A DNA stretch of 64,000 bases, from assembly GCA_903885375.1 (NCBI GenBank), contig CAISIK010000064.1, positions 456 through 64,455 on the forward strand, given 5' to 3'. Source of the stretch: an uncultured Pseudomonadota bacterium. Lineage in GTDB: Bacteria > Myxococcota_A > UBA796 > SXON01. This document shows, piece by piece, positions 8,462 to 42,109 of the stretch. The translations under genes were made by a program, and so were the position numbers. A model generated the notes under the pieces. That model searched no databases. It was not told the DNA's origin and saw only the letters and a program-made list of their open reading frames with translations. Positions within the stretch are counted from its first letter, which is position 1, and the number at the start of each line of letters is the position of its first letter.

Positions 8462-8465
<4 letters not shown>
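7929..8465 (-). CDS. actD: alternative complex III subunit ActD (DUF3341-like)
   Basis: 178-aa ORF with two central hydrophobic helices, lying between actC and actE and overlapping both. Confidence 0.75.
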
Positions 8466-9795
<1,330 letters not shown>

Positions 9796-9796
<1 letters not shown>

Positions 9797-12700
9797 CAGC
9801 CCTCCTTGTGCTCGGCGCCGTGGCCGTGCGCGGGTGCTTCATCGGGTCCACCGTGGCCGCCGGGGGCTTCGGTGGGGGTGTGGGAATCGCCGTGGCCTTC
9901 CTCGTGGCCGCCGCCGTGCCCGCCGCCGTGGCTGAAGGCCGGCGCGTGGTGGCTGACCTTCGCCATGTAGCGAACACCGGGCTTGGTGTTGAGCTCGCCG
10001 AGCAGCGTGTAGGCGCGCGGGCTGGTGCCGAGCTGGCGAACCGTGGAGTCGGTGTCGTTCCAGTTGCCGAAGTTGATGGCTTCGGAGGGGCAGGCCGCGG
10101 CGCAGGCCGTGAGGCGCTGCAGCGCGGCATCGGGCACGCGATGCTTGTCCATGCTCACCGGCTTGCCGGGCTCGCGCTCTGCGAAGGCGGCATCACGCCA
10201 GTTGTCCTTCACGGAGCGCACGCGCTGCACGCAGAACGTGCACTTCTCCATCACGCCCATCTCTCGCGTGGAGAGCTCCGGGTTGAGCATGAGGTGGTAG
10301 CTCTGCGGCCACTCCCACGTGTGGTAGTTGAAGCGGCGGGCGGTGTACGGACAGTTGTTGGCGCAGTACCGGGTGCCCACGCACCGGTTGTAGATCATGG
10401 CGTTGAGGCCATCGAGGTTGTGGTAGGTGGCGAGCACCGGGCACACACCCTCGCACGGAGCGTGCGCGCAGTGCTGGCAGATGGCCGGCAGGTAGCGCAC
10501 GTCGGGGCTGTTCTCATCGCCTTCGAAGAACCGGTCCATGCGGATCCAGCTCATCGTGCGGCCCTTGCGGAGCTGGTCCGGACCCACAAACGGGGTGTTG
10601 TTCTCCACCGCGCAGGCAATCTGGCAGGCACCGCAGCCATTGCAGGCGTTGGTGTCGATGACCATCGAGAAGCGGTAGGTGGGGTGCTGGGGCTCGGGGA
10701 ACATGTCCACCGGGCCGGCCGCCTCGACGCGCGGGTCGGTGGGGAGGTGGTGGATGGGCACGATCGACTGGGCTTCACCCTCGACGTTCGCCACCGCATC
10801 GGCGGCGTTCACCCGGGCGGCGATGGTGCGGCCGTCCTGGTTCATGCTGCCGCACAGCGCGTGGAGACCGCTGTCGCCCTGCGTCCGGGTGATTCGCACG
10901 CGGGAGGTCAGGTTGAGCGCACCGGAGGCCGGGTCGACTTCGCCGCCGAGCAGGGCGAAGGCGTTGGCGCCGCGGCCCTTGGCGTACTTGCCGGTGGTCT
11001 TGCCGTTGCCCATCCGGAGCGCCACGGTGTCCTCGCGGACGGTCGGCGCGCCGAACCAGCCCACGGTCACGCTGCCGTGGTCGGTCTCCACCTTCACGAG
11101 GTCCTTCTCACCGAGGCCGAGCGACTCGGCCGTGCGGGGGTTGATCTCGATCCAGGTGTTCCAGAAGTAGGTGCTGACCGGATCGGGGAGCTCCTGCGCC
11201 CAGGGTACGTTGGCCCAGCGGCCATCACCGAGGTGGGAGGCGAAGAGGACCAGCGCGCGATCGCCGCTGCCGGAGTTGGTGCCTTCGGGGAGCGACGCGG
11301 CCACCCACGACACGGCCGCGAGGGCGGGGGGGGAGGCCACGAGGCCGATGGTCTGCACTTCCTGCCACCACGCGGCGGCGTTGGCGCCCGCGGGCATCAG
11401 GAGCGCGGTCCAGCGGGCCTTGACGAGCTCGCCGAAGTTGGCCGCCGACGCCACGAGGCTGGCGGTGGAGACCGGCGCGGGCGCGGCCACCGGGGCGACC
11501 GTGGCCGTGGAGTCTGCCGCGGGGGTGGCATCCGTGGAGCCTTCCAAGGGGGCAACCACCGCCTCCACCGGAGGAGCCGCGGGAGCCCATGCCTTCGCGA
11601 GGGTGAGCAGCGTATCGCCCAGGCCCCGGCTGTCGTGCAGCGGGACCATGCTGGGCTGACCGAGCACGTGCAGGCTGGATTCCACGCTCGCATCCGACCA
11701 CTGCTCGAGGCCCGAGCCGGTGGGGAGGACGAGGGTGTTCTCGCCGGTGGAGTCGTTCGCCTCGTCGGCGAACTGCACCACGAGGTCGACCTTGGCGAGC
11801 GCATCAGCTGCGCCGATCGCGGCGGGGAGCGCGTGGATGGCATCAATGCCATCGAGGAACAGCACGCCGATCTTGCCGGCCGCCGCATCCGCGACGAGCG
11901 ACTTCACGTCGGCGAACGAGTTCACCTGGCCGGGACGGAACCCGCGGCCGAACTGCACCGCCGTGCCGACGGCGCCGAGCACCATGTTGCAGAGGAGCGT
12001 GGCGACCGCGAGCGCGGTGGCGTCGGCGCCCTGCGTGGAGGGGCCGCCGGGGAGAACCACGGAGGGGGCCGCGGTGAGCATGGCCGCGAGCTCGGTGAGG
12101 CGCGCCTCGGCGATGCCGCTGGCGGCGCAGGCCGCGTTGACATCGACCCCGGAGAGCAGCGAGGCGCCGGCGCCGGAGTAGCCGTTGGCGGCGGCGCAGA
12201 GCTTCGCGAGCGCGAGGGCCACCTGCGTTTCGGTGCCGGGGAGGGCGCTCACCCAGTCATCGCAACCGATGCTGGAGCTGGAGAGGCGGGGCTCGATCGC
12301 CACGAGGCGGGCGGCAAACCCATCCGAGGCGGGATTGCGGGCCTTGGCGAAGCCCTTCCGCATGGCCATCGAACCGAAGGCGGAGTCGGCGAAGTCGAAG
12401 CCGAAGCTGACGACGGTACGGGCGCCGGCGAGCTCGTAGACGGGGAGCTCATCCACGCCGAAGGCAATGCGCGCGGCGGCGAGGAGGGGCTCCACGCCGA
12501 GCGTTTCCCAGTGAACCCGGCGAAGGCCACCCTCGGCGAGCACATCGAGGAGGGCGCTCGCGGTGCCCGTGCGGTAGCGACCGAGCCAGGCCACGGTCTT
12601 CCCGGCGGCGCGCGCGGCGGCGACCGCATCGAGCATCTGCTTGTCGGCATCGGCCCAGGAGAGGGTGGTGCGCTTGGCGGTGGCACCCGGCAGGCGGTCG

Positions 12701-13011
12701 GGACCGTAGGCCGCGATCAGGTCGAAGTGGCCGCGGGTGCAAAGCCCGGGGCCGCTCGGGTGATCGGGATTGCCTTCCACGCCGACCACACGGCCGTCGG
12801 TGTTGCGGGCGACCAGGCCGCAGGCCGTGGCACACCCGTTGCACAACGAGGCGTAGTAGGTGGCGAGCCCCGGCTGCACGTTCTCGGGGTTCACGACATA
12901 GGGGAGCACCTCTTCCTGAGGCACCTTGTAGTCGTAGGCGCAGGCCGCCGCGGTGGCCGAGGTGGCAACCGCGCCTGCCTTGAGGAAGTCGCGGCGGTTC
13001 AGTCCGTCCAT
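9796..13011 (-). CDS. actB: alternative complex III ActB (fused molybdopterin-like and 4Fe-4S domains)
   Basis: 1071-aa ORF. Tat signal NRRDFLKAG. Ferredoxin-type clusters CNGCGACQIAC, CQHCAHAPCEGVCP and CVGTRYCANNCP. His-rich C-terminal tail. Confidence 0.9.
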
Positions 13012-14639: not shown

Positions 14640-15053
14640 ATGCCCGGTTTCTGGATGATGCTCGCCTGCGTGGCCGCCGCGGTCGATCCCGCGCCGCCCT
14701 CTCCCCCCTCGCCCGTCGAGGTCGTGGCCGACGACGTCCCGCCTCCGGCTCCTCCGGTGCCTTCCATGCCCTCCGCCGTCGCCGAGGCGCGCATCGAAGG
14801 CCCCTCAACCCCGGGCGAGTGTGGCGCGGACGGCGACTGCGTGGCCACCGGCTGCGCCTCCGAGGTTTGCGTGGCGGGCCCGCGGGCCGGCGAGATCATC
14901 ACCACCTGCGAGGTGCTGCCCATCTTCAGCGAGCTCAGCGCCTGCGGCTGCCATGAAGGCGTGTGCAGCTGGACGAGGGTTCCCGGCGCGCGCGAGCTCG
15001 GCGCGCCGCGCACGCTCCCCGTGCGGGTGGTTGGTGGGGGCGGTGGGACTTGA
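14640..15053 (+). CDS. eight-cysteine lipoprotein
   Basis: ORF 14565-15053 trimmed to ATG 14640 (MPGFWMMLAC). Pro-rich tether, then 8 Cys (CGADGDCVATGCASEVC ... TTCE ... CGCHEGVC). The last 22 nt are antisense to the tRNA-Leu gene. Confidence 0.55.
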   Translation: MPGFWMMLACVAAAVDPAPPSPPSPVEVVADDVPPPAPPVPSMPSAVAEARIEGPSTPGECGADGDCVATGCASEVCVAGPRAGEIITTCEVLPIFSELSACGCHEGVCSWTRVPGARELGAPRTLPVRVVGGGGGT

Positions 15054-15117
15054 ACCCACAAGGGTATACACCCGGGGGATTTTGAATCCCCTGCGTCTGC
15101 CATTCCGCCACGCCCCC
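15032..15117 (-). tRNA. tRNA-Leu (anticodon CAA), type II with long variable arm, CCA encoded
   Basis: Hand-folded cloverleaf. Acceptor GGGGGCG/CGCCCCC, anticodon stem GGGGA/TCCCC, loop TTCAAAA, 15-nt variable arm, T-arm GTGGG-TTCAAGT-CCCAC, 3-prime ACCA. Confidence 0.95.
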
Positions 15118-21804: not shown

Positions 21805-22797
21805 GTGTCGCGATACGTCCGCGGCGTGATGGCCTGGTTGCGGCGGAACCTGGGCGCGGTGCTCCGGTTCTGCGCCACGATCGTGGCCCTCGGCTGGGCC
21901 GGCGAGCACCTGCGCGCCGCCTGGGGCAGCACGCCCATGCCGGGCCTCGTGGCCGGGCCGGCCCAGTGGGCGCTTGCGCTGGGGGCGGGGGCGGCGGCGC
22001 TCCTGCTGCTCTCCTCGGTGTCGGCGGCCGGCGTGGTGGCGCTCGGCCTCGTCCCGCGCGCGGGGGCGCTGGCGTTCGGCCTCGCGTGGACGCGACTGTG
22101 GTTCGTGTCGTACCTCTACCGGTACATCCCGGGAAAGCTCGTGCTCATCGCGGAGCGCGTGCGAATGGGGCGGGCCTTCGGCATTGGCGCCACGCCGAGC
22201 GTGCTGCTCGTGGTCTGGGAGAGCGGCCTGCTGCTCGCGGGCGCCGCCGTCTTCGCCGCGCTCGGGTACGCCGGCGTGCCGCTCCCGGCCGATGCGCCGC
22301 TCACGCAGGGGCAGGCGGTGCTCGCCGCAGTCGTGTGTCTCGTGGGGCTGCTGCTGTTCCCCCAGGAGCTCCGTTGGGCTGCGCGGCGCTTCCCCTCGCT
22401 GGCGGCGCGCCTCCCCGGCCTCGTCCTGGAGGTGCCGGTGGGCGCGCAGCTCGCGCTCGTGGGGGCCAACGCGGTGTGCTGGGGACTCCTCGGCCTCTGC
22501 TTCGCCCTGACGGCCCGGCTCTTCGACAACCCCGCGCCGGTGAGCGCCCTCCCCCTCGCGGTGTGGTTCGTGGTGTCCTACGTGGTGGGGCAGGTGTCGA
22601 GCGTGACGCCCGCGGGCCTCGGGGTGCGCGAGGCCGTGCTGGTGGCGGCGCTGGCGGATGTCGCTGCGCCGCCCGTGGTGCTCGCGTGGGCGGTGGCGAA
22701 CCGGCTCCTGCTGGCCGCCGTGGAGCTCGTGCTGCTGCTCCTGTCGCTCACGATTCGGCTCCCGGAGCGGGTCGCGGCGCCGGAAGCCACCGGTTAG
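21805..22797 (+). CDS. UPF0104 / lysylphosphatidylglycerol-synthase-TM-like flippase-type membrane protein
   Basis: 330-aa polytopic ORF with the family-typical TPAGLGVREAVLV motif. GTG start. Confidence 0.7.
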   Translation: MSRYVRGVMAWLRRNLGAVLRFCATIVALGWAGEHLRAAWGSTPMPGLVAGPAQWALALGAGAAALLLLSSVSAAGVVALGLVPRAGALAFGLAWTRLWFVSYLYRYIPGKLVLIAERVRMGRAFGIGATPSVLLVVWESGLLLAGAAVFAALGYAGVPLPADAPLTQGQAVLAAVVCLVGLLLFPQELRWAARRFPSLAARLPGLVLEVPVGAQLALVGANAVCWGLLGLCFALTARLFDNPAPVSALPLAVWFVVSYVVGQVSSVTPAGLGVREAVLVAALADVAAPPVVLAWAVANRLLLAAVELVLLLLSLTIRLPERVAAPEATG

Positions 22798-22815: not shown

Positions 22816-23832
22816 GTGGCGCCCATGCCTTCCCCGCGCCCCTTGCGTCTACTCGTGATGATGCCGGCGCTCAACGAAGCGGCCACCATCGGGTCCGTGC
22901 TCGCGCGGGTTCCCCGCTCGCTCTCGGGCGTGGCGGAGGTGTCGCTCCTCGTGATCGACGACGGCAGCACCGACGAGACCGTACAGATCGCGCGCGCGGC
23001 CGGCGCCGACGTGATCAGCCACGGCCACAACCTCGGGGTGGGGGTGGCCTTGCAAACGGGGCTCGCCGAGGCGCTCCGGCGGGGGGTGGACCTCGCCGTG
23101 AACATCGACAGCGACGGGCAGTTCGCCCCCGAGGACATCGCGAAGCTCATCGTACCGGTGGTTGAGGGGAGGGCCGACTTCGTGTCGGCGTCGCGTTTCC
23201 TCGACCCCGCGCTCGTGCCCGACATGCCGGGGGTGAAGAAGCTCGGCAACTGGGGCATGGCCCGCATCATCAGCGCGCTGGTGGGGCGCCGCTTCGCCGA
23301 CGTGAGCTGCGGTTTCCGCTGCTACGGCCGCGAGGCGATGCTCCGGCTGGTGCTCCTCGGCAAGTTCACCTACACGCAGGAGAGCTTCCTCGTGCTCTCC
23401 CAGAAGGGCCTTCGCCTCGTGGAGATGCCCATCCCCGTGCGCGGGGTCCGCGAGTTCGGGCAGAGCCGCGTGGCGAGCAACCTCTGGAACTACGCCTGGC
23501 GCACGCTGGCCATCATCTTCGGCTTCATCCGCGACTACTCGCCCGGCCTGCTCTTCAACAACCTCACGCTCCTGCTCGCCGTCCTCTCCGCGGGCTTCGG
23601 TTCGTTCTTCTTCTGGCACCGCTGGTCCACCGGCGCGTTCTCGCCCCACATCTGGGCCGGGTTCGTGAGCGCCTACCTGTTCGGGCTGGCCATCCTCGTT
23701 TTCGGGCTCGGCCAGATCGCGCTGATGGTGGCGCGTTTGCGGAGCGTCCAGGAGCAGCAGCTGTACCTCGCGCGGCGTTACCTCCCGCGGCTCGGGGAGC
23801 CCGAGCCCCCCGGAAACCCCGATGCGAATTGA
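22816..23832 (+). CDS. family 2 glycosyltransferase with C-terminal membrane anchor
   Basis: MPALNEAATI ... VIDDGSTDET ... NIDSDGQ motifs (GT-A, DxD), plus C-terminal TM helices like polyprenyl-phosphate glycosyltransferases. Confidence 0.9.
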   Translation: MAPMPSPRPLRLLVMMPALNEAATIGSVLARVPRSLSGVAEVSLLVIDDGSTDETVQIARAAGADVISHGHNLGVGVALQTGLAEALRRGVDLAVNIDSDGQFAPEDIAKLIVPVVEGRADFVSASRFLDPALVPDMPGVKKLGNWGMARIISALVGRRFADVSCGFRCYGREAMLRLVLLGKFTYTQESFLVLSQKGLRLVEMPIPVRGVREFGQSRVASNLWNYAWRTLAIIFGFIRDYSPGLLFNNLTLLLAVLSAGFGSFFFWHRWSTGAFSPHIWAGFVSAYLFGLAILVFGLGQIALMVARLRSVQEQQLYLARRYLPRLGEPEPPGNPDAN

Positions 23833-24487
23833 CCCGGACACGCTCCGCGACATGGCCGCCCGCCTGGGCGAGGCGGACCGCGACGAGATGGCCATTCCCA
23901 GCTACCTCCACCCCAACCCCGCGCTGCGGTGGATGGCCTGGCGGCGGGTGGAGGTAGTGGCCCGGCTCCTGCGCGAGACCTGCCCCGAAGGGGGGTGCGT
24001 GCTCGACTTCGGGTGCGGCACCGGGGTCCTGTTCGAGGCCGCGCTCGAACGCGCGGGGTCGGTGATCGGCGTCGACCTCGTGCTCGGTGCCGCCCGGCAC
24101 TGGAAGGACAAGCAGAACCTCGCCCGGGTGTCGTTGATGACGCCGGCGGAGGCGATGGCCGCCGTGCCCGACGCGAGCGTGGATGTGGTGGTGGCGGCCG
24201 AGGTGCTGGAGCACATCGAAGACCCGGCGGAGGTGCTGGCGTTCTTCCTCAGGGTGCTGCGCCCCGGTGGCGTGCTGCTCGTGAGCCTCCCGACCGAGGG
24301 CCGGCTCTACCGCCTCGGGCGCCGGCTCGCGGGCTTCAGCGGGCACTACCACGACCACAACGCTGCCGTGGTGGCCGCGCGCATCGAGGCCGCCGGCTTC
24401 GAGCTCCGCACGGCCGGGCACATCCCGCTGCCGCCGCCCGCGGCCATCTACTTCGTTGCCACCTACCGCCCCGGCGCCCGGCCATGA
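23822..24487 (+). CDS. class I SAM-dependent methyltransferase
   Basis: 221-aa ORF with motif I VLDFGCGTG and VVVAAEVLEHI. Overlaps both of its neighbours. Confidence 0.85.
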   Translation: MRIDPDTLRDMAARLGEADRDEMAIPSYLHPNPALRWMAWRRVEVVARLLRETCPEGGCVLDFGCGTGVLFEAALERAGSVIGVDLVLGAARHWKDKQNLARVSLMTPAEAMAAVPDASVDVVVAAEVLEHIEDPAEVLAFFLRVLRPGGVLLVSLPTEGRLYRLGRRLAGFSGHYHDHNAAVVAARIEAAGFELRTAGHIPLPPPAAIYFVATYRPGARP

Positions 24488-27069: not shown

Positions 27070-27175
27070 GGGCATCGGTGCGGCGAGAGCCTCGCGCGCA
27101 CCCGGTCGCCCGCACGTCGAGGCGGCGCGCCGCGAACCACCTCAGGTTGTTGCCGTGAATATGTTCGGCGTGGGG

Positions 27176-27206
27176 TTGACAAAACTTTGGGGGGGGGGCG
27201 TATCCT
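27176..27206 (+). promoter_or_regulatory. candidate sigma-70-type promoter with a G10 tract in the spacer
   Basis: TTGACA (27176-27181), a 19-nt spacer containing G10, then TATCCT (27201-27206). GAGGA (27220-27224) precedes ATG 27229. Confidence 0.4.
27189..27198 (+). repeat. homopolymeric G10 tract
   Basis: Ten consecutive G. This is the longest homopolymer I found by eye in the window. Confidence 0.9.
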
Positions 27207-27228
27207 TGCCGTTCACCCTGAGGATTTC

Positions 27229-27981
27229 ATGTCTTGTTCCACGACCTTCGGCCCCACACAGAAAACCCTTGTCGCGACCTCCACCACGCTTCAGTACGAG
27301 TGGATGGGAGGGTGGGAGCTCGCGATCGGCGTCACCGCGCTCAAGGCGGTGATCAAGCGTCGCACTGCAACCGCCTTCCAGGCTCAGTTCGCGATCCAGA
27401 CCGCACCGGTGCGCACCGACAAGCCGAACGCGCCCGTGCCGCTGGGCACGCTCACCTCGGGCGAAGGCGAAACCTGCTCCACCGTGATTGACCTCACCAG
27501 CTACACGTCGGGCAACTTCTGGATTCGGGTGGGTGTGGCCTACTCGGCAACTTCGGCGACTGTTGGGAGCTGCGATGTCACGTTCACCGGCGGCCTCTCG
27601 CGTTGCGGTCGGTCGCTGGGGGTGCAGGTGTTCACGCTGTCCACCCTGAGCACGACCAACGCCTACCAGCCGATCACGGGCTGGCAGCCGGCGCTCGACC
27701 TCGAGGTGATCAAGGCGGCGATCGTGACCACGGGGATCATCGGCAACTTCCGGTTCCGGCTGGCTTACCGTCGTGCCACCACCAGCCAGGAGGTGCCCGG
27801 CGCGTGGTCGACTGACCTCACCTCCGAGTGGAGCCAGAACGGCGAAGCGGCGCTGAGTGACACGCCCTTGCCTAGCGTCGGCGCCGAGATGTGGGTGCAG
27901 ATCGGCATTCAGTACTACCTCTCCACCGGCAGCGCGCTCGGTCAGGCCACCGTGAGCGTAGCGCTCGCGGGCAAGCGGTGA
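27229..27981 (+). CDS. hypothetical tandem-duplicated beta-rich protein (island 1, gene 1)
   Basis: 250 aa from ATG 27229, no signal peptide. Two homologous halves (see findings). Codon usage is less GC-biased than the backbone. Confidence 0.65.
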   Translation: MSCSTTFGPTQKTLVATSTTLQYEWMGGWELAIGVTALKAVIKRRTATAFQAQFAIQTAPVRTDKPNAPVPLGTLTSGEGETCSTVIDLTSYTSGNFWIRVGVAYSATSATVGSCDVTFTGGLSRCGRSLGVQVFTLSTLSTTNAYQPITGWQPALDLEVIKAAIVTTGIIGNFRFRLAYRRATTSQEVPGAWSTDLTSEWSQNGEAALSDTPLPSVGAEMWVQIGIQYYLSTGSALGQATVSVALAGKR

Positions 27982-29459
27982 CGCCGGGGCAGACGTCGGG
28001 CGTCAGCGCAGGCGCGGGACCGGGGGAATCGGGAGCTGACGCCTTTCTCGGTCAGGCCTATCGAGCGTGGATGCTCGACGAGGCGGGGCGACAGTTTTCG
28101 CACGGTCCGACCTCGGCCGAGGTACAGGAGGCCATGCACGCTGTCGGTCCCCCACCTTCCGTGCTGGCCGAGGGAGTGCTGGCCGTGGTGGAGCAGGGCC
28201 CGAACGTTCAGCCCACCGTGGATGTCTGGATCAGCGCCGGGCCGCGTTCGTCGGTGAACTGGCTTGGCCAGGCGCTGCCGGCGGGGGAGGAGATCAGCTG
28301 CGACCAGGGGAGCACCGAGAGCTGCCGGATCTATCGCCTGCGCCTCAACATTCTGGCCCGCACCGCCACGGTCACCAAGGTGCAGGACCTCACCGGGATG
28401 GGCATGGGGTCGGTTCAGCCGGCGGTGGATGCGAGTGGGAGGCAATTGGCTACGGTAATCAACCGAGGGAAGTCGGCGAACGGAAACTATCCAGCCGCCG
28501 TCGGGCTTCTGCTCGATGACGGCGGCGGGTGGCCGATCTTCCTGCGCGAGCCGGTGGGCCCTTCCGCTCGCCGACCCGCGAAGCCGACGTTCTGGGGTGC
28601 CAAGCGAGTGCTGTGGACGTCGAACGTCGGGGGTGAGCTCGATGACAACAGCCCAAGTTGGTGGTGGGCGAACCTGATGCAATCGAATCTTGCTTCGGGT
28701 TCGGCTCCCAGCGTATTGCTGGGCGGTCCCGAGGGGGAGAACAGCGACAGCAACCCACCGCCGCCCTGCGAGGCCAACCCAGATTGGCCGAGCGCCGACT
28801 GTGTGAGCTGGCGGGATGCCCAGGTTCACCCCAACCCGGCGGCGTTGAGCCATCTGGTAGCCGCGGAATGGGTCACCGTGTTCGGCCGCCACGGTGTCGA
28901 CCCGCTCGCCGCCGAAGGCAGGCCGATCGTGGCGCGGCTGCCCGATGGGTCCGCCATCCAGGAGTTCGACCTCGGCAACGGCAACGAGGGGGACTCGATT
29001 GTGGGCTGCCACCATCCCGCCTGGAGCATCACGGGCGGGGAGATTGCCTGTACGAGGGAAAAGTCCTTTGATGACACGGTCGGTCTTGAACTCGACGTAC
29101 ACGGCCTTTACGGCTTCCGCTTCCCAAACTTTGGGCGTTGGCAGAACCAAGGCGAGGTGATCAGGAGCACCGACGTTCGTGGCGATCCCGATTTCCCCCA
29201 CTTTCACGGGCTTGCCTACTCGGGTAACGACCATCCTGTCCTCAGCTACAAATACGCCACATGGGTAGCCTCCGACCGTTGGATAGCCGCCACCGTTTTC
29301 ATCACCCAGGGCGGCTCGCACAACGTCCTGATGAGCCGGGTGGTGCTGTTCGACACCACCGGAGCAGAGGCTCCCTTGGATCTGGTCGAGTTCGTCGAGG
29401 ACGCAGAGGGGGCCACCCGCGGCGAGTGGCGGGCGGTGTCCAGCGAGGCGCGGCGATGA
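27978..29459 (+). CDS. hypothetical protein with degenerate TolB/PD40-like beta-propeller repeats (island 1, gene 2)
   Basis: The in-frame GTG at 27978 overlaps the upstream stop (GTGA). Trp/Gly-rich repeats such as HHPAWSITGGEIACT and ATWVASDRWIAAT. Start uncertain. Confidence 0.55.
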   Translation: MTPGQTSGVSAGAGPGESGADAFLGQAYRAWMLDEAGRQFSHGPTSAEVQEAMHAVGPPPSVLAEGVLAVVEQGPNVQPTVDVWISAGPRSSVNWLGQALPAGEEISCDQGSTESCRIYRLRLNILARTATVTKVQDLTGMGMGSVQPAVDASGRQLATVINRGKSANGNYPAAVGLLLDDGGGWPIFLREPVGPSARRPAKPTFWGAKRVLWTSNVGGELDDNSPSWWWANLMQSNLASGSAPSVLLGGPEGENSDSNPPPPCEANPDWPSADCVSWRDAQVHPNPAALSHLVAAEWVTVFGRHGVDPLAAEGRPIVARLPDGSAIQEFDLGNGNEGDSIVGCHHPAWSITGGEIACTREKSFDDTVGLELDVHGLYGFRFPNFGRWQNQGEVIRSTDVRGDPDFPHFHGLAYSGNDHPVLSYKYATWVASDRWIAATVFITQGGSHNVLMSRVVLFDTTGAEAPLDLVEFVEDAEGATRGEWRAVSSEARR

Positions 29460-30463
29460 CCGCGCGGGTGGTCCTCTTCGGTGTGCTGGTAGGGTCCTGC
29501 TCCTGTGTGCCACCCAACGACGCGGACACCGGGGGCCGCAGCAAGAGCGGCGAGGGGAAGGATTCCGGGGACACCGGCGAGCAGACCGCGCGCACCTGCC
29601 CCGACGAGCCGTGGATTGATGTGCAGGTGTCGTGGGACTCCGCGTGTGGTCTCCACGAGGGCGGCTGCATCGAGTGTTGGGGGCGCAATGAAAACGGCGG
29701 CTGGGGGTTGTACGACCCGCCCGATCTGGTAGCGGCTTCCATGACCATCGCCGAGGTGAGCTACGAAGATACCGTCGAGGATGGTACGTATCCCGGCGGA
29801 TGCGCCATCACGCCTGAAGGAGACATGGAGTGTTGGGGAGCGGGGGACTACGGGAGCACGCATCCCACGTCGGATGTCGCGGCGGTGGAGTTGTCCGACT
29901 ATGGCGCGATCGGGGTGCTCACGCTCAATGGCGAGTTGTTTCTCACCAGCCACGGGAAATATTCGCACCTTCCTGTCCCGGACCTCACTGGCCCCTTCGG
30001 CGTGGGTAACTATCGGGTGGCCGGTGTGACCGGCGGGCGATTGTTGTCATGGAAGGGGCAAGGTGGGAGCGAAGAATTGGAGCTGGTTGCGGACTTCGGA
30101 CTGGTTGCTGATTGGCGGTGGTTGCGACACCTTGGCGAGCTTCACATGGTTGGCGCGAGGTTGGATGGCGCCCTGGTGATCTTTGAGGCGAGCCAATACC
30201 ACGGGGATGCCGTTGAGATAGCCCCTCCGGGCTCCGAGTGGGTCGACCTGTTTGCATACCCCTACATCGTCCAGGACGCCGACGGCTACCTCTTCTGGCT
30301 CGAGGATGTGGCGGCCGGGCCCGTGGTTCCCGATCCGATGATGCGCTTCGACATGCGGCAGGGCGGCGATGGTTGCGGCGTGACCTTCGATGGCCGCGTC
30401 CAGTGCATCGGGCCGTTCGCCGCGGAATACCCCCCGCCAGGAAGCTACGTGGTGGGTCCGTAG
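29456..30463 (+). CDS. RCC1-like repeat lipoprotein (island 1, gene 3)
   Basis: ATG 29456 overlaps the upstream stop (ATGA). Lipobox VGSCSC and a DTG tether. Recurrent CWG-type motifs (IECWG, MECWG, VQCIG). Confidence 0.6.
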   Translation: MTARVVLFGVLVGSCSCVPPNDADTGGRSKSGEGKDSGDTGEQTARTCPDEPWIDVQVSWDSACGLHEGGCIECWGRNENGGWGLYDPPDLVAASMTIAEVSYEDTVEDGTYPGGCAITPEGDMECWGAGDYGSTHPTSDVAAVELSDYGAIGVLTLNGELFLTSHGKYSHLPVPDLTGPFGVGNYRVAGVTGGRLLSWKGQGGSEELELVADFGLVADWRWLRHLGELHMVGARLDGALVIFEASQYHGDAVEIAPPGSEWVDLFAYPYIVQDADGYLFWLEDVAAGPVVPDPMMRFDMRQGGDGCGVTFDGRVQCIGPFAAEYPPPGSYVVGP

Positions 30464-30502
30464 GATGGACGGGGAGACGTGAGCCCCGCCCCCCCCGCCT
30501 CC

Positions 30503-41448: not shown

Positions 41449-41563
41449 GGCGCGACCGGGCGCGCCGCCTAAACCGGGGCATGCAAGCTGTGAAACTGGC
41501 GGCAGGCCACGGGTTGGACATTTTTTTCTGACAGCGGCGGCATTGCGCCGGGGACCGGGTACA

Positions 41564-42109
41564 ATGCTGGACCGCTCCGGGGTTCACGCTCCGGGGTTCA
41601 TCATGCGTATGTGGACTGGTAATGGTGCCTTTCAATGGGAAGCTTCCCGCAAGTGGGAACTGAACGCGGCCTCCGAATTCTGCAGAGGCGATGGCGCGGT
41701 GCTCATTCCTGGGGGGCTTCAATCGTTCAGCGTGTTTTTCCGCCGAGCCAGTCAGTCGGCGGGGACATTCACCCTCAAGGTGCACACAACTCCGATCTAT
41801 ACGCAGCTGCTCGATACCGAGGTCACCTCGAACAACGCGGCCGCTACCCTGCTTCCGCTCGCCGTACAGCCGCTCACCGGCTTGGAGATGACCTCCACTG
41901 GGGCCAAAGTGTTTGGGGCGAGGATCGACCCTTCGCAAGCCATGGGCACCGTGCTGTTCTGGGAGGTGGCCAACACCGTTGCCGGTGGCGTTCTGGTCGG
42001 CGACATCTACCTCGTGGCCAATCATCAAGGCGCAGTAGCGAACCCGAGGTTCGCTCGGACCGTGGACGACCCCGACGGTCAGGGCGGCACCAACCCGCGA
42101 ATGCGGTGA
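41564..42109 (+). CDS. hypothetical single-domain beta-rich protein, apparent paralog of the 27229 product (island 2, gene 1)
   Basis: ORF 41438-42109 with candidate ATG starts at 41564 or 41603. Shares the QxE...WEL and RR...F.L...TP motifs with the island 1 protein. Confidence 0.55.
   Translation: MLDRSGVHAPGFIMRMWTGNGAFQWEASRKWELNAASEFCRGDGAVLIPGGLQSFSVFFRRASQSAGTFTLKVHTTPIYTQLLDTEVTSNNAAATLLPLAVQPLTGLEMTSTGAKVFGARIDPSQAMGTVLFWEVANTVAGGVLVGDIYLVANHQGAVANPRFARTVDDPDGQGGTNPRMR

What the first reader, a model, noticed from the sequence alone, without database searches (positions are those of the whole stretch)
27176..27206. G10 tract inside the spacer of a near-consensus promoter: candidate phase-variable switch for island 1
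A perfect -35 (TTGACA, 27176-27181) and a -10-like TATCCT (27201-27206) are separated by 19 nt. Ten of those 19 nt are a G homopolymer (27189-27198), the longest run I could find by eye in 64 kb. A GAGGA ribosome-binding site and ATG 27229 follow. Homopolymers in promoter spacers are an established route to slipped-strand ON/OFF or volume control, as with the Bordetella fim and Neisseria opc promoters. Losing 1-2 G would give the optimal 17-18 nt spacing.
Basis: partly seen in the sequence, partly recalled or inferred. Interest (0 to 1): 0.75.

Follow-up and report, generated by a model that had tools for sequence, protein, structure and literature searches.

The report
Poly-G tract in a promoter spacer
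A run of ten G's sits between the two recognition boxes of the promoter of an uncharacterised three-gene operon in an uncultured Myxococcota-like bacterium. Related promoters repeatedly carry such slippery repeats of different lengths, so it is probably a mutational volume or ON/OFF switch of the kind known from pathogens, seen here in an environmental lineage.

Summary

A single G10 in 71% GC DNA is not significant alone (0.12-0.66 expected per 64 kb). Comparative data make it significant.

- **Strain polymorphism:** two independent assemblies of a 99.7-99.8% identical strain carry G11. The tract is the only indel among 35 differences in 12.7 kb.
- **Recurrence:** orthologous promoters in other metagenomes carry G13, G11, G10, a decayed GGGTGGGGG, a (GGC)n repeat, a heptamer x4, or no repeat, interleaved on the protein tree.
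- **Enrichment:** in 289 kb of high-GC DNA examined, all eight G/C runs of 9 or more lie in these promoters.

The promoter drives a translationally coupled operon. It encodes a 250-aa tandem beta-sandwich protein (about 490 clusters at 50% identity, no annotation), a roughly 490-aa protein and an RCC1-like lipoprotein.

Best reading: a slipped-strand contingency promoter of the porA/opc type. Reversible switching, the active tract length and the transcription start are untested.

It is a new member of a known kind, in a phylum where my literature search found none described.

The parts
27070..27111 (+). GC-rich hairpin just after the stop codon of the upstream phosphodiesterase-family gene. 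It is a possible terminator without a U tract and would insulate the island promoter from read-through.
   Evidence: The fold shows the hairpin in both the MFE and centroid structures. The z-score of the whole region is not significant, and the terminator scan did not call it, so this part is weak.
27157..27166 (+). Relatively A/T-rich block GAATATGTTC, 10-19 nt upstream of the -35 box. Similar GAA-N-TTCG blocks sit at the same place in the L005, L008 and L009 promoters. It could be an UP-like element or a regulator site.
   Evidence: Alignment of upstream regions. No function was tested.
27176..27181 (+). -35 hexamer TTGACA, a perfect consensus match.
   Evidence: TTGACA occurs only 4 times on both strands of the window. 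TTGACA or TTGACT is conserved at the same place in L005, L008, L009 and L014.
27182..27200 (+). 19-nt promoter spacer AAACTTT-G10-CG.
27189..27198 (+). G10 homopolymer, the proposed slipped-strand mutable element. It is G11 in a near-identical strain.
   Evidence: longest run in the window. (G11 in L001 and L002, the only indel in 12.7 and 9.8 kb). (all runs of 9 or more in 289 kb are at these promoters).
27201..27206 (+). -10 hexamer TATCCT (TAnnnT).
   Evidence: Aligned -10 boxes in orthologues are TATGCT, TACGTT, TATGTT, TAGGCT and TATGAT. In five of these six promoters the box lies 22-24 nt before the start codon; L010 has a 49-nt leader.
27220..27224 (+). Shine-Dalgarno-like GAGGA, 4 nt before the ATG, in a predicted leader of about 16 nt.
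   Evidence: The leader sequence TGC-N3-TCACC...GA(G/A)(G/A)A is conserved in L008, L010 and L014.
27229..27981 (+). g1: a 250-aa protein of unknown function. It is a tandem beta-sandwich (jelly-roll-like) fold with a conserved N-terminal M-x-C.
   Evidence: GC3 is 0.86. No Pfam, PHROG or PADLOC hit. The AF2 model has pLDDT 93.7. Foldseek gives only loose matches, TM 0.25-0.3, to SIDT1 ectodomain, XepA and PRD1 P3. The family holds 29 clusters at 90% identity and 490 at 50%. dN/dS is 0.14-0.37.
27978..29459 (+). g2: a protein of about 493 aa of unknown function. Its GTG start overlaps the g1 stop (GTGA), which suggests translational coupling.
   Evidence: overlap. (the N-terminal extension is conserved in homologues). 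(co-occurs with g1 in L005, L009 and L014). The AF2 model is poor, pLDDT 46.
29456..30463 (+). g3: a 335-aa predicted lipoprotein (LVGSC lipobox-like signal) with an RCC1-type repeat. Its ATG overlaps the g2 stop (ATGA).
30489..30496 (+). C8 tract in the 39-nt gap between g3 and the convergent gene, at the 3' edge of the island. Its length is invariant between the strains, so it serves as a control for homopolymer miscalling.

Best explanation
The G10 tract lies in the spacer of the sigma-70-type promoter (TTGACA-19 nt-TATCCT) that drives a horizontally mobile, translationally coupled three-gene operon (g1-g2-g3, 27229-30463). Shown: the promoter geometry is conserved in orthologous loci. The tract is the only length-variable site between two near-identical strains. 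Orthologous promoters repeatedly carry uninterrupted G tracts of different lengths or other simple repeats. Inferred: slipped-strand mispairing during replication adds or removes a G. Each step changes the -35/-10 distance by about 3.4 A and their relative rotation by about 35 degrees. RNA polymerase therefore uses the promoter better or worse, and a clonal population contains cells with different, heritable but reversible expression levels of the operon. This would be a contingency locus of the porA/opc type. Which length is most active is unknown. Repeat-free relatives have 17-18 nt spacers, which favours the view that G10 (19 nt) and G11 (20 nt) are low states. However, 19 nt recurs in four lineages. 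The operon includes a predicted lipoprotein and lies next to envelope polysaccharide genes, so the likely selective agent is something that recognises the cell surface, such as phage, predators or kin. That last point is speculation.
For: (1) The architecture is exact and unique in the window.

(2) L001 and L002 come from a strain 99.73% and 99.81% identical to the window. They carry G11 instead of G10, and this is the only gap in 12,753 and 9,783 aligned bases, against 34 and 18 substitutions. The C8 tract 3.3 kb away is unchanged.

(3) Assembly calls at such tracts are reproducible. L001 and L002 are identical and both show G11. L005, L006 and L007 are identical and all show G13.

(4) Orthologous promoters have these forms:
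- L005: TTGACA-[AC G13 CGAA]-TATGCT
- L009: TTGACA-GATACC-G11
- L011: G10
- L008: TTGACT-[..GGGTGGGGG..]-TACGTT
- L010: (GGC)5.7 filling the spacer
- L099/L100: (ATGGTCG)x4 directly after TTGACA
- L014 and L101: repeat-free spacers of 18 and 17 nt

That is 4 independent lineages, with none elsewhere.

(6) Synonymous divergence between these genes is 0.74-1.1 per site while dN/dS is 0.14-0.37. A neutral 10-13 nt run would not stay uninterrupted over that divergence.

(7) Repeat-bearing and repeat-free promoters are interleaved in both clades of the g1 tree, as expected for repeated gain and loss.

(8) The established analogue is the porA promoter with a poly-G between -35 and -10: 11G is high, 10G is 2.2-fold lower and 9G is 13-fold lower (PMC3639595).
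Against: No reads were available, so heterogeneity within a population and reversibility were not observed.

Only one informative strain pair exists. The sequencing platform of the window is unknown, so G10 versus G11 could still be a homopolymer miscall.

The transcription start is not mapped.

The total spacer is 19 nt in four lineages despite different tract lengths: 7+10+2, 2+13+4, 8+9+2 and the GGC version. That pattern could equally mean selection for a fixed 19-nt geometry rather than for variability.

Two tract-bearing loci have a damaged g1: an ACG start in L005 and an internal deletion with frameshift in L009. Long tracts may therefore partly accompany decay.

In L011 and L099 the repeat is 95-170 nt from the start codon and the promoter assignment is unclear.
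Confidence: 0.58

Rival explanations
1. The tract is a static architectural element. The G tract is conserved because it gives the promoter a particular fixed geometry or responsiveness. Possible forms are a long 19-nt G/C-rich spacer that makes the promoter dependent on negative supercoiling, a stiff A-like poly(dG).poly(dC) segment, or a binding site for an unknown factor. In this reading, slippage is only tolerated noise.
For: The total spacer length is 19 nt in four lineages although the tract length differs, with compensating changes in the flanks. L008 keeps 19 nt with an interrupted, poorly slippery tract upstream of an intact gene under purifying selection. The tract is poly-G on the sense strand in every lineage.
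Against: Other orthologues do without any G tract and have 17-18 nt spacers (L014, L101). Still others replace it with unrelated repeats, (GGC)n or a heptamer, which share slipperiness but not sequence or structure. L001 and L002 have 20 nt. The spacer has no dyad symmetry and no regulator gene lies adjacent.
Confidence: 0.2
2. The tract is a neutral by-product of GC-rich, mutation-biased intergenic DNA. It is an accidental run with no effect on expression, and the G10/G11 difference is a sequencing or assembly miscall.
For: Markov expectation is 0.12-0.66 G runs of 10 or more per 64 kb. Homopolymers are the classic site of indel errors. Only one strain comparison is informative.
Against: All runs of 9 or more in 289 kb fall in the roughly 100-nt promoters of one gene family, in four independent lineages. 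The tracts are uninterrupted despite a dS near 1. Independent assemblies of the same strain agree on length, 2 of 2 and 3 of 3. The C8 control tract does not differ between strains.
Confidence: 0.08
3. The tract is a transcribed RNA-level element. Transcription would start upstream, either by read-through from the phosphodiesterase gene or from another promoter. The G run would then act in the 5' leader, for example by pairing with the CCCU/SD region or by causing transcriptional slippage.
For: The upstream gene is on the same strand, 159 nt away, with no U-tract terminator. In the minimum-energy fold the G run pairs with the CACCCUGAGG segment that overlaps the SD.
Against: The fold is no better than shuffles (z = +1.08). 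There is no Rfam match even at E<=1. The conserved elements are a perfect -35 and a TAnnnT box at a fixed distance from the start codon, not a conserved pairing partner. The cassette keeps this promoter in unrelated genomic contexts.
Confidence: 0.06
4. The promoter is a MerR-type activator-dependent promoter, in which a conserved over-long 19-20 nt spacer is realigned by a bound regulator.
For: The 19-20 nt spacing between good -35 and -10 boxes is the hallmark of MerR-family promoters (established knowledge). This spacing recurs in four lineages.
Against: The spacer has no dyad-symmetric operator. No MerR-family gene lies next to the promoter in the window or in the other loci. Relatives have 17-18 nt spacers.
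Confidence: 0.03

Closest known systems
Neisseria meningitidis porA promoter (poly-G between -35 and -10)
   Same: It has a G homopolymer of 9-11 nt inside the spacer of a sigma-70-type promoter. One-base changes in length grade expression: 11G is high, 10G is 2.2-fold lower and 9G is 13-fold lower (PMC3639595). The tract length differs between strains.
   Different: porA controls a known outer-membrane porin in a host-restricted pathogen with about 52% GC. Its switching, rates and selection by antibody are demonstrated experimentally. Here the organism is an uncultured Myxococcota-like bacterium with 71% GC, the products are uncharacterised, the observed spacers are 19-20 nt, and nothing has been measured.
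Neisseria meningitidis opc (poly-C promoter) and Bordetella pertussis fim (C tract) promoters
   Same: These are homopolymers within or next to core promoter elements, and their length sets transcription.
   Different: In opc the tract also supplies part of the promoter. In fim the tract lies between the activator (BvgA) site and the -10 box. No activator site is known here. Both are pathogen surface antigens.
Haemophilus influenzae hifA/hifB (TA repeats between -35 and -10) and Mycoplasma vlp (poly-A in promoter)
   Same: Simple repeats other than G/C runs in promoter spacers change the spacing (van Ham 1993 is cited in PMC5084427). This parallels the (GGC)n and heptamer repeats seen in the orthologous promoters L010 and L099.
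   Different: The repeat chemistry and the organisms differ. In the present family several repeat types occur at orthologous promoters of one gene family.
Homopolymeric-tract phase variants in Mycobacterium tuberculosis
   Same: They show that homopolymer indels act as reversible switches in a high-GC genome with few classic contingency loci (PMC11898584 abstract).
   Different: I have read only the abstract of that study. [quoted passage not shown] It does not describe a tract placed in a promoter spacer, as here.

Membership tests
SSR-driven transcriptional phase variation (promoter-spacer homopolymer, porA/opc type) | [quoted passage not shown] | tested here: met
   G10 at 27189-98 lies inside TTGACA-19 nt-TATCCT, 22 nt upstream of the ATG at 27229. 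The promoter itself is inferred from consensus and conservation; it is not mapped.
SSR-driven transcriptional phase variation (promoter-spacer homopolymer, porA/opc type) | Tract length differs between closely related strains while the flanks are conserved | tested here: met
   The window has G10 and L001/L002 have G11, at 99.7-99.8% identity. The tract is the only indel. There is only one informative pair, and the platform of the window is unknown.
SSR-driven transcriptional phase variation (promoter-spacer homopolymer, porA/opc type) | A repeat is present at orthologous loci, with its length or type varying | tested here: met
   The orthologous promoters carry G13, G11, G10, GGGTGGGGG, (GGC)5.7, (ATGGTCG)x4 or no repeat. 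All runs of 9 or more in 289 kb are at these promoters.
SSR-driven transcriptional phase variation (promoter-spacer homopolymer, porA/opc type) | High-frequency, reversible length changes within a clonal population | not testable with these tools
   No read-level data are available. Identical strains in 2 and 3 samples gave identical consensus lengths, which says nothing about minority variants.
SSR-driven transcriptional phase variation (promoter-spacer homopolymer, porA/opc type) | Expression level depends on tract length | not testable with these tools
   This needs reporter fusions or transcript or protein measurements of length variants.
SSR-driven transcriptional phase variation (promoter-spacer homopolymer, porA/opc type) | Transcription start mapped downstream of the proposed -10 box | not testable with these tools
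   The only support is indirect: a 22-24 nt distance from the -10 box to the start codon and a conserved leader in five of six promoters with an assigned TAnnnT box (L010 has 49 nt).
MerR-type promoter | 19-20 bp spacer between the -35 and -10 boxes | tested here: met
   The spacer is 19 nt in the window and 20 nt in L001/L002.
MerR-type promoter | Dyad-symmetric operator within the spacer and an adjacent MerR-family regulator gene | tested here: not met
   There is no inverted repeat in the spacer. The neighbouring genes are a phosphodiesterase-family gene and g1, and no MerR or HTH hit was found.
Known structured RNA or riboswitch in the leader | Match to an Rfam covariance model, or a significantly stable fold | tested here: not met
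   There is no Rfam match at gathering score or at E<=1. Fold z-scores are -0.39 and +1.08.
Sequencing artefact (two-colour poly-G) | G run at a read or contig end, without conserved sequence on both sides | tested here: not met
   The tract is internal. It has identical flanks in three assemblies and homologous flanks in other species.

The most novel reading that the evidence does not exclude
A widespread but entirely uncharacterised three-gene envelope cassette of environmental Myxococcota and neighbouring phyla (the g1 family has about 490 clusters at 50% identity) may be a true contingency locus. Its promoters have repeatedly evolved different slippery repeats (Gn, (GGC)n, a heptamer). 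This would be the first simple-repeat phase variation described in Myxococcota, and evidence that free-living, high-GC soil and sediment bacteria use the pathogen-style strategy to vary a surface-related function, for example against phage or in kin or prey interactions.
Probability: 0.4. Interest if true: 0.72.

Novelty: new member of a known kind. Interest (0 to 1): 0.58.

Why it matters
Simple-repeat contingency loci are textbook features of host-adapted pathogens such as Neisseria, Haemophilus, Campylobacter, Helicobacter and Mycoplasma. They are rarely documented in free-living, high-GC environmental bacteria. A full-text search found no paper connecting homopolymer phase variation with Myxococcus in substance.

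If this promoter does switch, it gives a concrete, easily testable example in the Myxococcota lineage. It also marks an unannotated gene family (g1-g2-g3) as being under fluctuating selection, which is a useful lead to its function.

The comparative pattern could also serve as a search signature for contingency loci in metagenomes where no reads or cultures exist. That pattern is different repeat types at orthologous promoters, with every long G/C run in 289 kb concentrated there.

Tried and rejected
- **GTDB species representatives:** searching for g1 relatives found none. The source genome and its family are therefore not among the representative genomes.
- **Viral contigs, phage and plasmid records:** no g1 homologue was found. 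A viral or plasmid origin was dropped, even though Foldseek listed double-jelly-roll capsid proteins at low TM.
- **Pfam, NCBIfam (neighbouring genes only), PHROGs and PADLOC:** nothing matched g1 or g2. A profile search of PDB sequences gave only noise.
- **RNA explanations:** there was no Rfam hit and the folds were not better than shuffles.
- **MerR-type promoter:** rejected for lack of a dyad operator and a regulator gene.
- **Paralogues or similar promoters elsewhere in the window:** none were found. The other G8/C8 runs are coding or lie between convergent genes.
- **Alternative upstream promoter:** the TATGTT at 27160-65 has no -35 partner (read).

Full report
**1. The observation**

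The sequence at 27160-27240 reads GTTGACAAAACTTTGGGGGGGGGGCGTATCCTTGCCGTTCACCCTGAGGATTTCATG.
- TTGACA at 27176-81
- a 19-nt spacer at 27182-27200
- G10 at 27189-98
- TATCCT at 27201-06
- GAGGA at 27220-24
- ATG at 27229

G10 is the longest homopolymer in the window; the next longest are three G8 and one C8. The window is 70.9% GC and 37% G. Markov models of order 1-5 therefore predict 0.12-0.66 G runs of 10 or more per 64 kb, so the run alone is not remarkable. The combined pattern TTGACA-N16-20-TANNNT is unique in the window, with 0.05 expected from shuffles. The built-in promoter scan missed it only because it allows spacers of 16-18 nt.

**2. What lies downstream**

Codon-position GC shows three plus-strand genes with lower GC3 (0.86, 0.78, 0.74) than the neighbouring genes (0.93-0.94).
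- g1 (27229-27981) encodes 250 aa.
- g2 starts at a GTG that overlaps the g1 stop (GTGA, 27978-81). Homologues conserve this N-terminal extension.
- g3 starts at an ATG overlapping the g2 stop (ATGA, 29456-59).

The three genes therefore form one translationally coupled operon ending at 30463, 39 nt before a convergent gene.

g1 and g2 have no Pfam, PHROG or PADLOC match. g3 has one RCC1 repeat hit and a lipoprotein-like signal.

The AF2 model of g1 is very confident (pLDDT 93.7). It shows two beta-sandwich domains. Foldseek hits are loose (TM 0.25-0.3): the SIDT1 ectodomain, XepA of PBSX, and the PRD1 and IBDV capsid proteins. They support only 'tandem jelly-roll-like fold'. The g2 model is unusable (pLDDT 46).

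The g1 family is small in the word-indexed search: 10 hits, then 29 with a profile, one of them from a Myxococcota MAG. A full HMMER scan finds 490 clusters at 50% identity, and all members looked up are 'hypothetical'. No homologue exists in the phage, plasmid or viral-contig collections.

The upstream context is envelope polysaccharide genes: a nucleotide-sugar dehydrogenase, a glycosyltransferase, a methyltransferase and a phosphodiesterase/sulfatase-like membrane protein.

For taxonomy, ValS is 77% and 74% identical to two MAG records whose titles are clearly wrong ('Klebsiella'). The next hits are 60% to a Myxococcota MAG and 55% to an Anaeromyxobacteraceae MAG. The organism is an uncultured Myxococcota-like bacterium without a close representative genome.

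**3. Comparative evidence on the tract**

*(a) Same species.* Contigs L001 and L002 come from two sequencing runs and are 100% identical to each other. They match the window at 99.73% and 99.81%, with 34 and 18 substitutions and exactly one gap: G11 instead of G10. The C8 tract 3.3 kb downstream is unchanged.

*(b) Orthologues.* Computed spacers are listed below (sequences).

| Locus | Promoter | Spacer |
|---|---|---|
| window | TTGACA-[AAACTTT G10 CG]-TATCCT | 19 |
| L001/L002 | same, with G11 | 20 |
| L005-7 (65% aa identity) | TTGACA-[AC G13 CGAA]-TATGCT | 19 |
| L008 (66%) | TTGACT-[TCTGCTTT GGGTGGGGG TG]-TACGTT | 19 |
| L009 (65%) | TTGACA-GATACC-G11-AGTTCT | 17, with a poor -10 box |
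| L010 (44%) | TTGCGC-[(GGC)5.7 TA]-TATGTT | 19 |
| L014 (66%) | TTGACT-18 nt-TAGGCT, no repeat | 18 |
| L101 (36%) | TTGTCG-17 nt-TATGAT, no repeat | 17 |

Other loci:
- L011 (40%) has a G10 about 95 nt upstream of the ATG.
- L099/L100 (38%) have TTGACA, then 11 nt, then (ATGGTCG)x4.
- L003, L012 and L095 show no repeat.

The -10 box lies 22-24 nt before the start codon in five of the six promoters with an assigned TAnnnT box; L010 has a 49-nt leader. The leader and a block upstream of the -35 box are alignable. This is a homologous promoter that travels with the cassette into unrelated genomic contexts.

All eight are at these promoters, in four independent lineages.

*(d) Persistence.* dS between these g1 genes is 0.74-1.1 and dN/dS is 0.14-0.37. 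At roughly one substitution per neutral site, a 10-13 nt run would not stay pure by chance. L008 shows what an interrupted tract looks like.

*(e) Phylogeny.* Repeat-bearing and repeat-free promoters are interleaved in both clades of the g1 tree. This implies repeated gain and loss, and replacement by other repeat types.

**4. Mechanism**

The closest experimentally established analogue is the meningococcal porA promoter. There a poly-G between -35 and -10 gives high expression at 11G, 2.2-fold lower at 10G and 13-fold lower at 9G (PMC3639595). Spacing-dependent promoter repeats are a recognised class (PMC5084427).

Steps shown here:
- the architecture
- conservation of the promoter
- length polymorphism between strains
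- recurrence of repeats

Steps inferred:
- the transcription start
- slippage within populations
- dependence of expression on length

I disagree with one detail. A 19-nt spacer recurs in four lineages, including L008, where the tract is no longer slippery and the gene is intact. So 19 nt may be a functional length, or the commonly sampled state. On the other hand, the repeat-free relatives have 17 and 18 nt. The active length is therefore open.

**5. Rivals**

- *Static architectural role* (0.2). This could be a fixed long G/C spacer, for example one conferring supercoiling dependence, or a factor binding site. The compensated 19-nt total favours it. The repeat-free orthologues and the substitution by unrelated repeat types weaken it.
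- *Neutral run plus miscall* (0.08). The recurrence contradicts this, as does the agreement of replicate assemblies.
- *RNA-level leader element* (0.06). There is no Rfam match and the folds are not significant.
- *MerR-type promoter* (0.03). There is no dyad operator and no regulator gene.

**6. Caveats**

- Only one strain pair is informative.
- Read data are unavailable.
- The platform of the window is unknown.
- Two tract-bearing loci have a damaged g1: an ACG in place of the ATG in L005-7, and an internal deletion with frameshift in L009. Some long tracts may therefore sit in decaying copies.
- The promoter assignment in L011 and L099 is uncertain.

**7. Novelty and verdict**

The mechanism class is well known, so this is a new member of a known kind. 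What is new is the setting: an environmental, 71% GC Myxococcota-like genome, for which a full-text search found no paper connecting homopolymer phase variation with Myxococcus in substance. Also new is the cargo, an unannotated three-gene cassette, and the pattern of several repeat types at orthologous promoters.

Scores: confidence in the switch reading is 0.58 and interest is 0.58.

Noticed in passing
L099:3830-3900 and L100 (same region), upstream of the g1 homologue P0012: A heptamer tandem repeat (ATGGTCG)x4 starts 11 nt after a TTGACA box. With a single copy the sequence would read TTGACA-17 nt-GATACT. The copy number is 4 in both assemblies, which differ by 6 SNPs.
   Followed up: partly
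L010:640-700, upstream of the g1 homologue P0007: A (GGC)5.7 trinucleotide repeat fills the spacer between TTGCGC and TATATG/TATGTT. It sits at the position occupied by poly-G in other orthologues.
   Followed up: partly
L005:405 (also L006, L007); L009:732-1308: Two tract-bearing orthologues have a defective g1. In L005-7 the start codon position reads ACG instead of ATG. In L009, g1 has an internal deletion of about 65 aa plus a frameshift.
   Followed up: partly
window 27229-27240 and all g1 homologues: The N-terminus M-x-C (Cys at residue 3) is conserved across the g1 family, with no signal peptide. This may indicate a processing or modification site.
   Followed up: no
window 22086-22187 and 23956-24250: The substitutions between the window and strain L001 are clustered: 9 fall in about 100 nt and 13 in about 300 nt. 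These patches lie in the open reading frames 21805-22797 and 23822-24487 (the methyltransferase gene), upstream of the island. The pattern looks like recombination patches rather than clock-like divergence.
   Followed up: no
L015 and L016 (GTDB representative records CAYHRZ010000236.1, CAMAWH010000014.1): The closest ValS relatives (77% and 74% aa identity) are MAG records titled 'uncultured Klebsiella sp.' and 'Klebsiella pneumoniae'. The next hits are Myxococcota and Anaeromyxobacteraceae, so the record titles appear to be mislabelled.
   Followed up: no
window 30489-30496: A C8 tract lies in the 39-nt gap between the convergent genes g3 and the 507-aa TIGR04551-like gene. Its length is identical in L001 and L002.
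   Followed up: partly
window 41500-41600: This intergenic region holds the longest A/T homopolymer in the window (T7, 41521-27, right after TTGGACA), a TACAAT box at 41560, and a perfect 14-nt direct repeat CGCTCCGGGGTTCA x2 (41573-41600).
   Followed up: no
window 9796-13011 (-) and 8462-9796 (-): A 1071-aa fusion of QrcB-like molybdopterin and QrcC-like Fe-S modules is followed by a DsrP/NrfD-like membrane subunit. This looks like an alternative-complex-III-type quinol oxidoreductase module.
   Followed up: no
window 15032-15117 (-): The only RNA gene found in the window is tRNA-Leu(CAA).
   Followed up: yes
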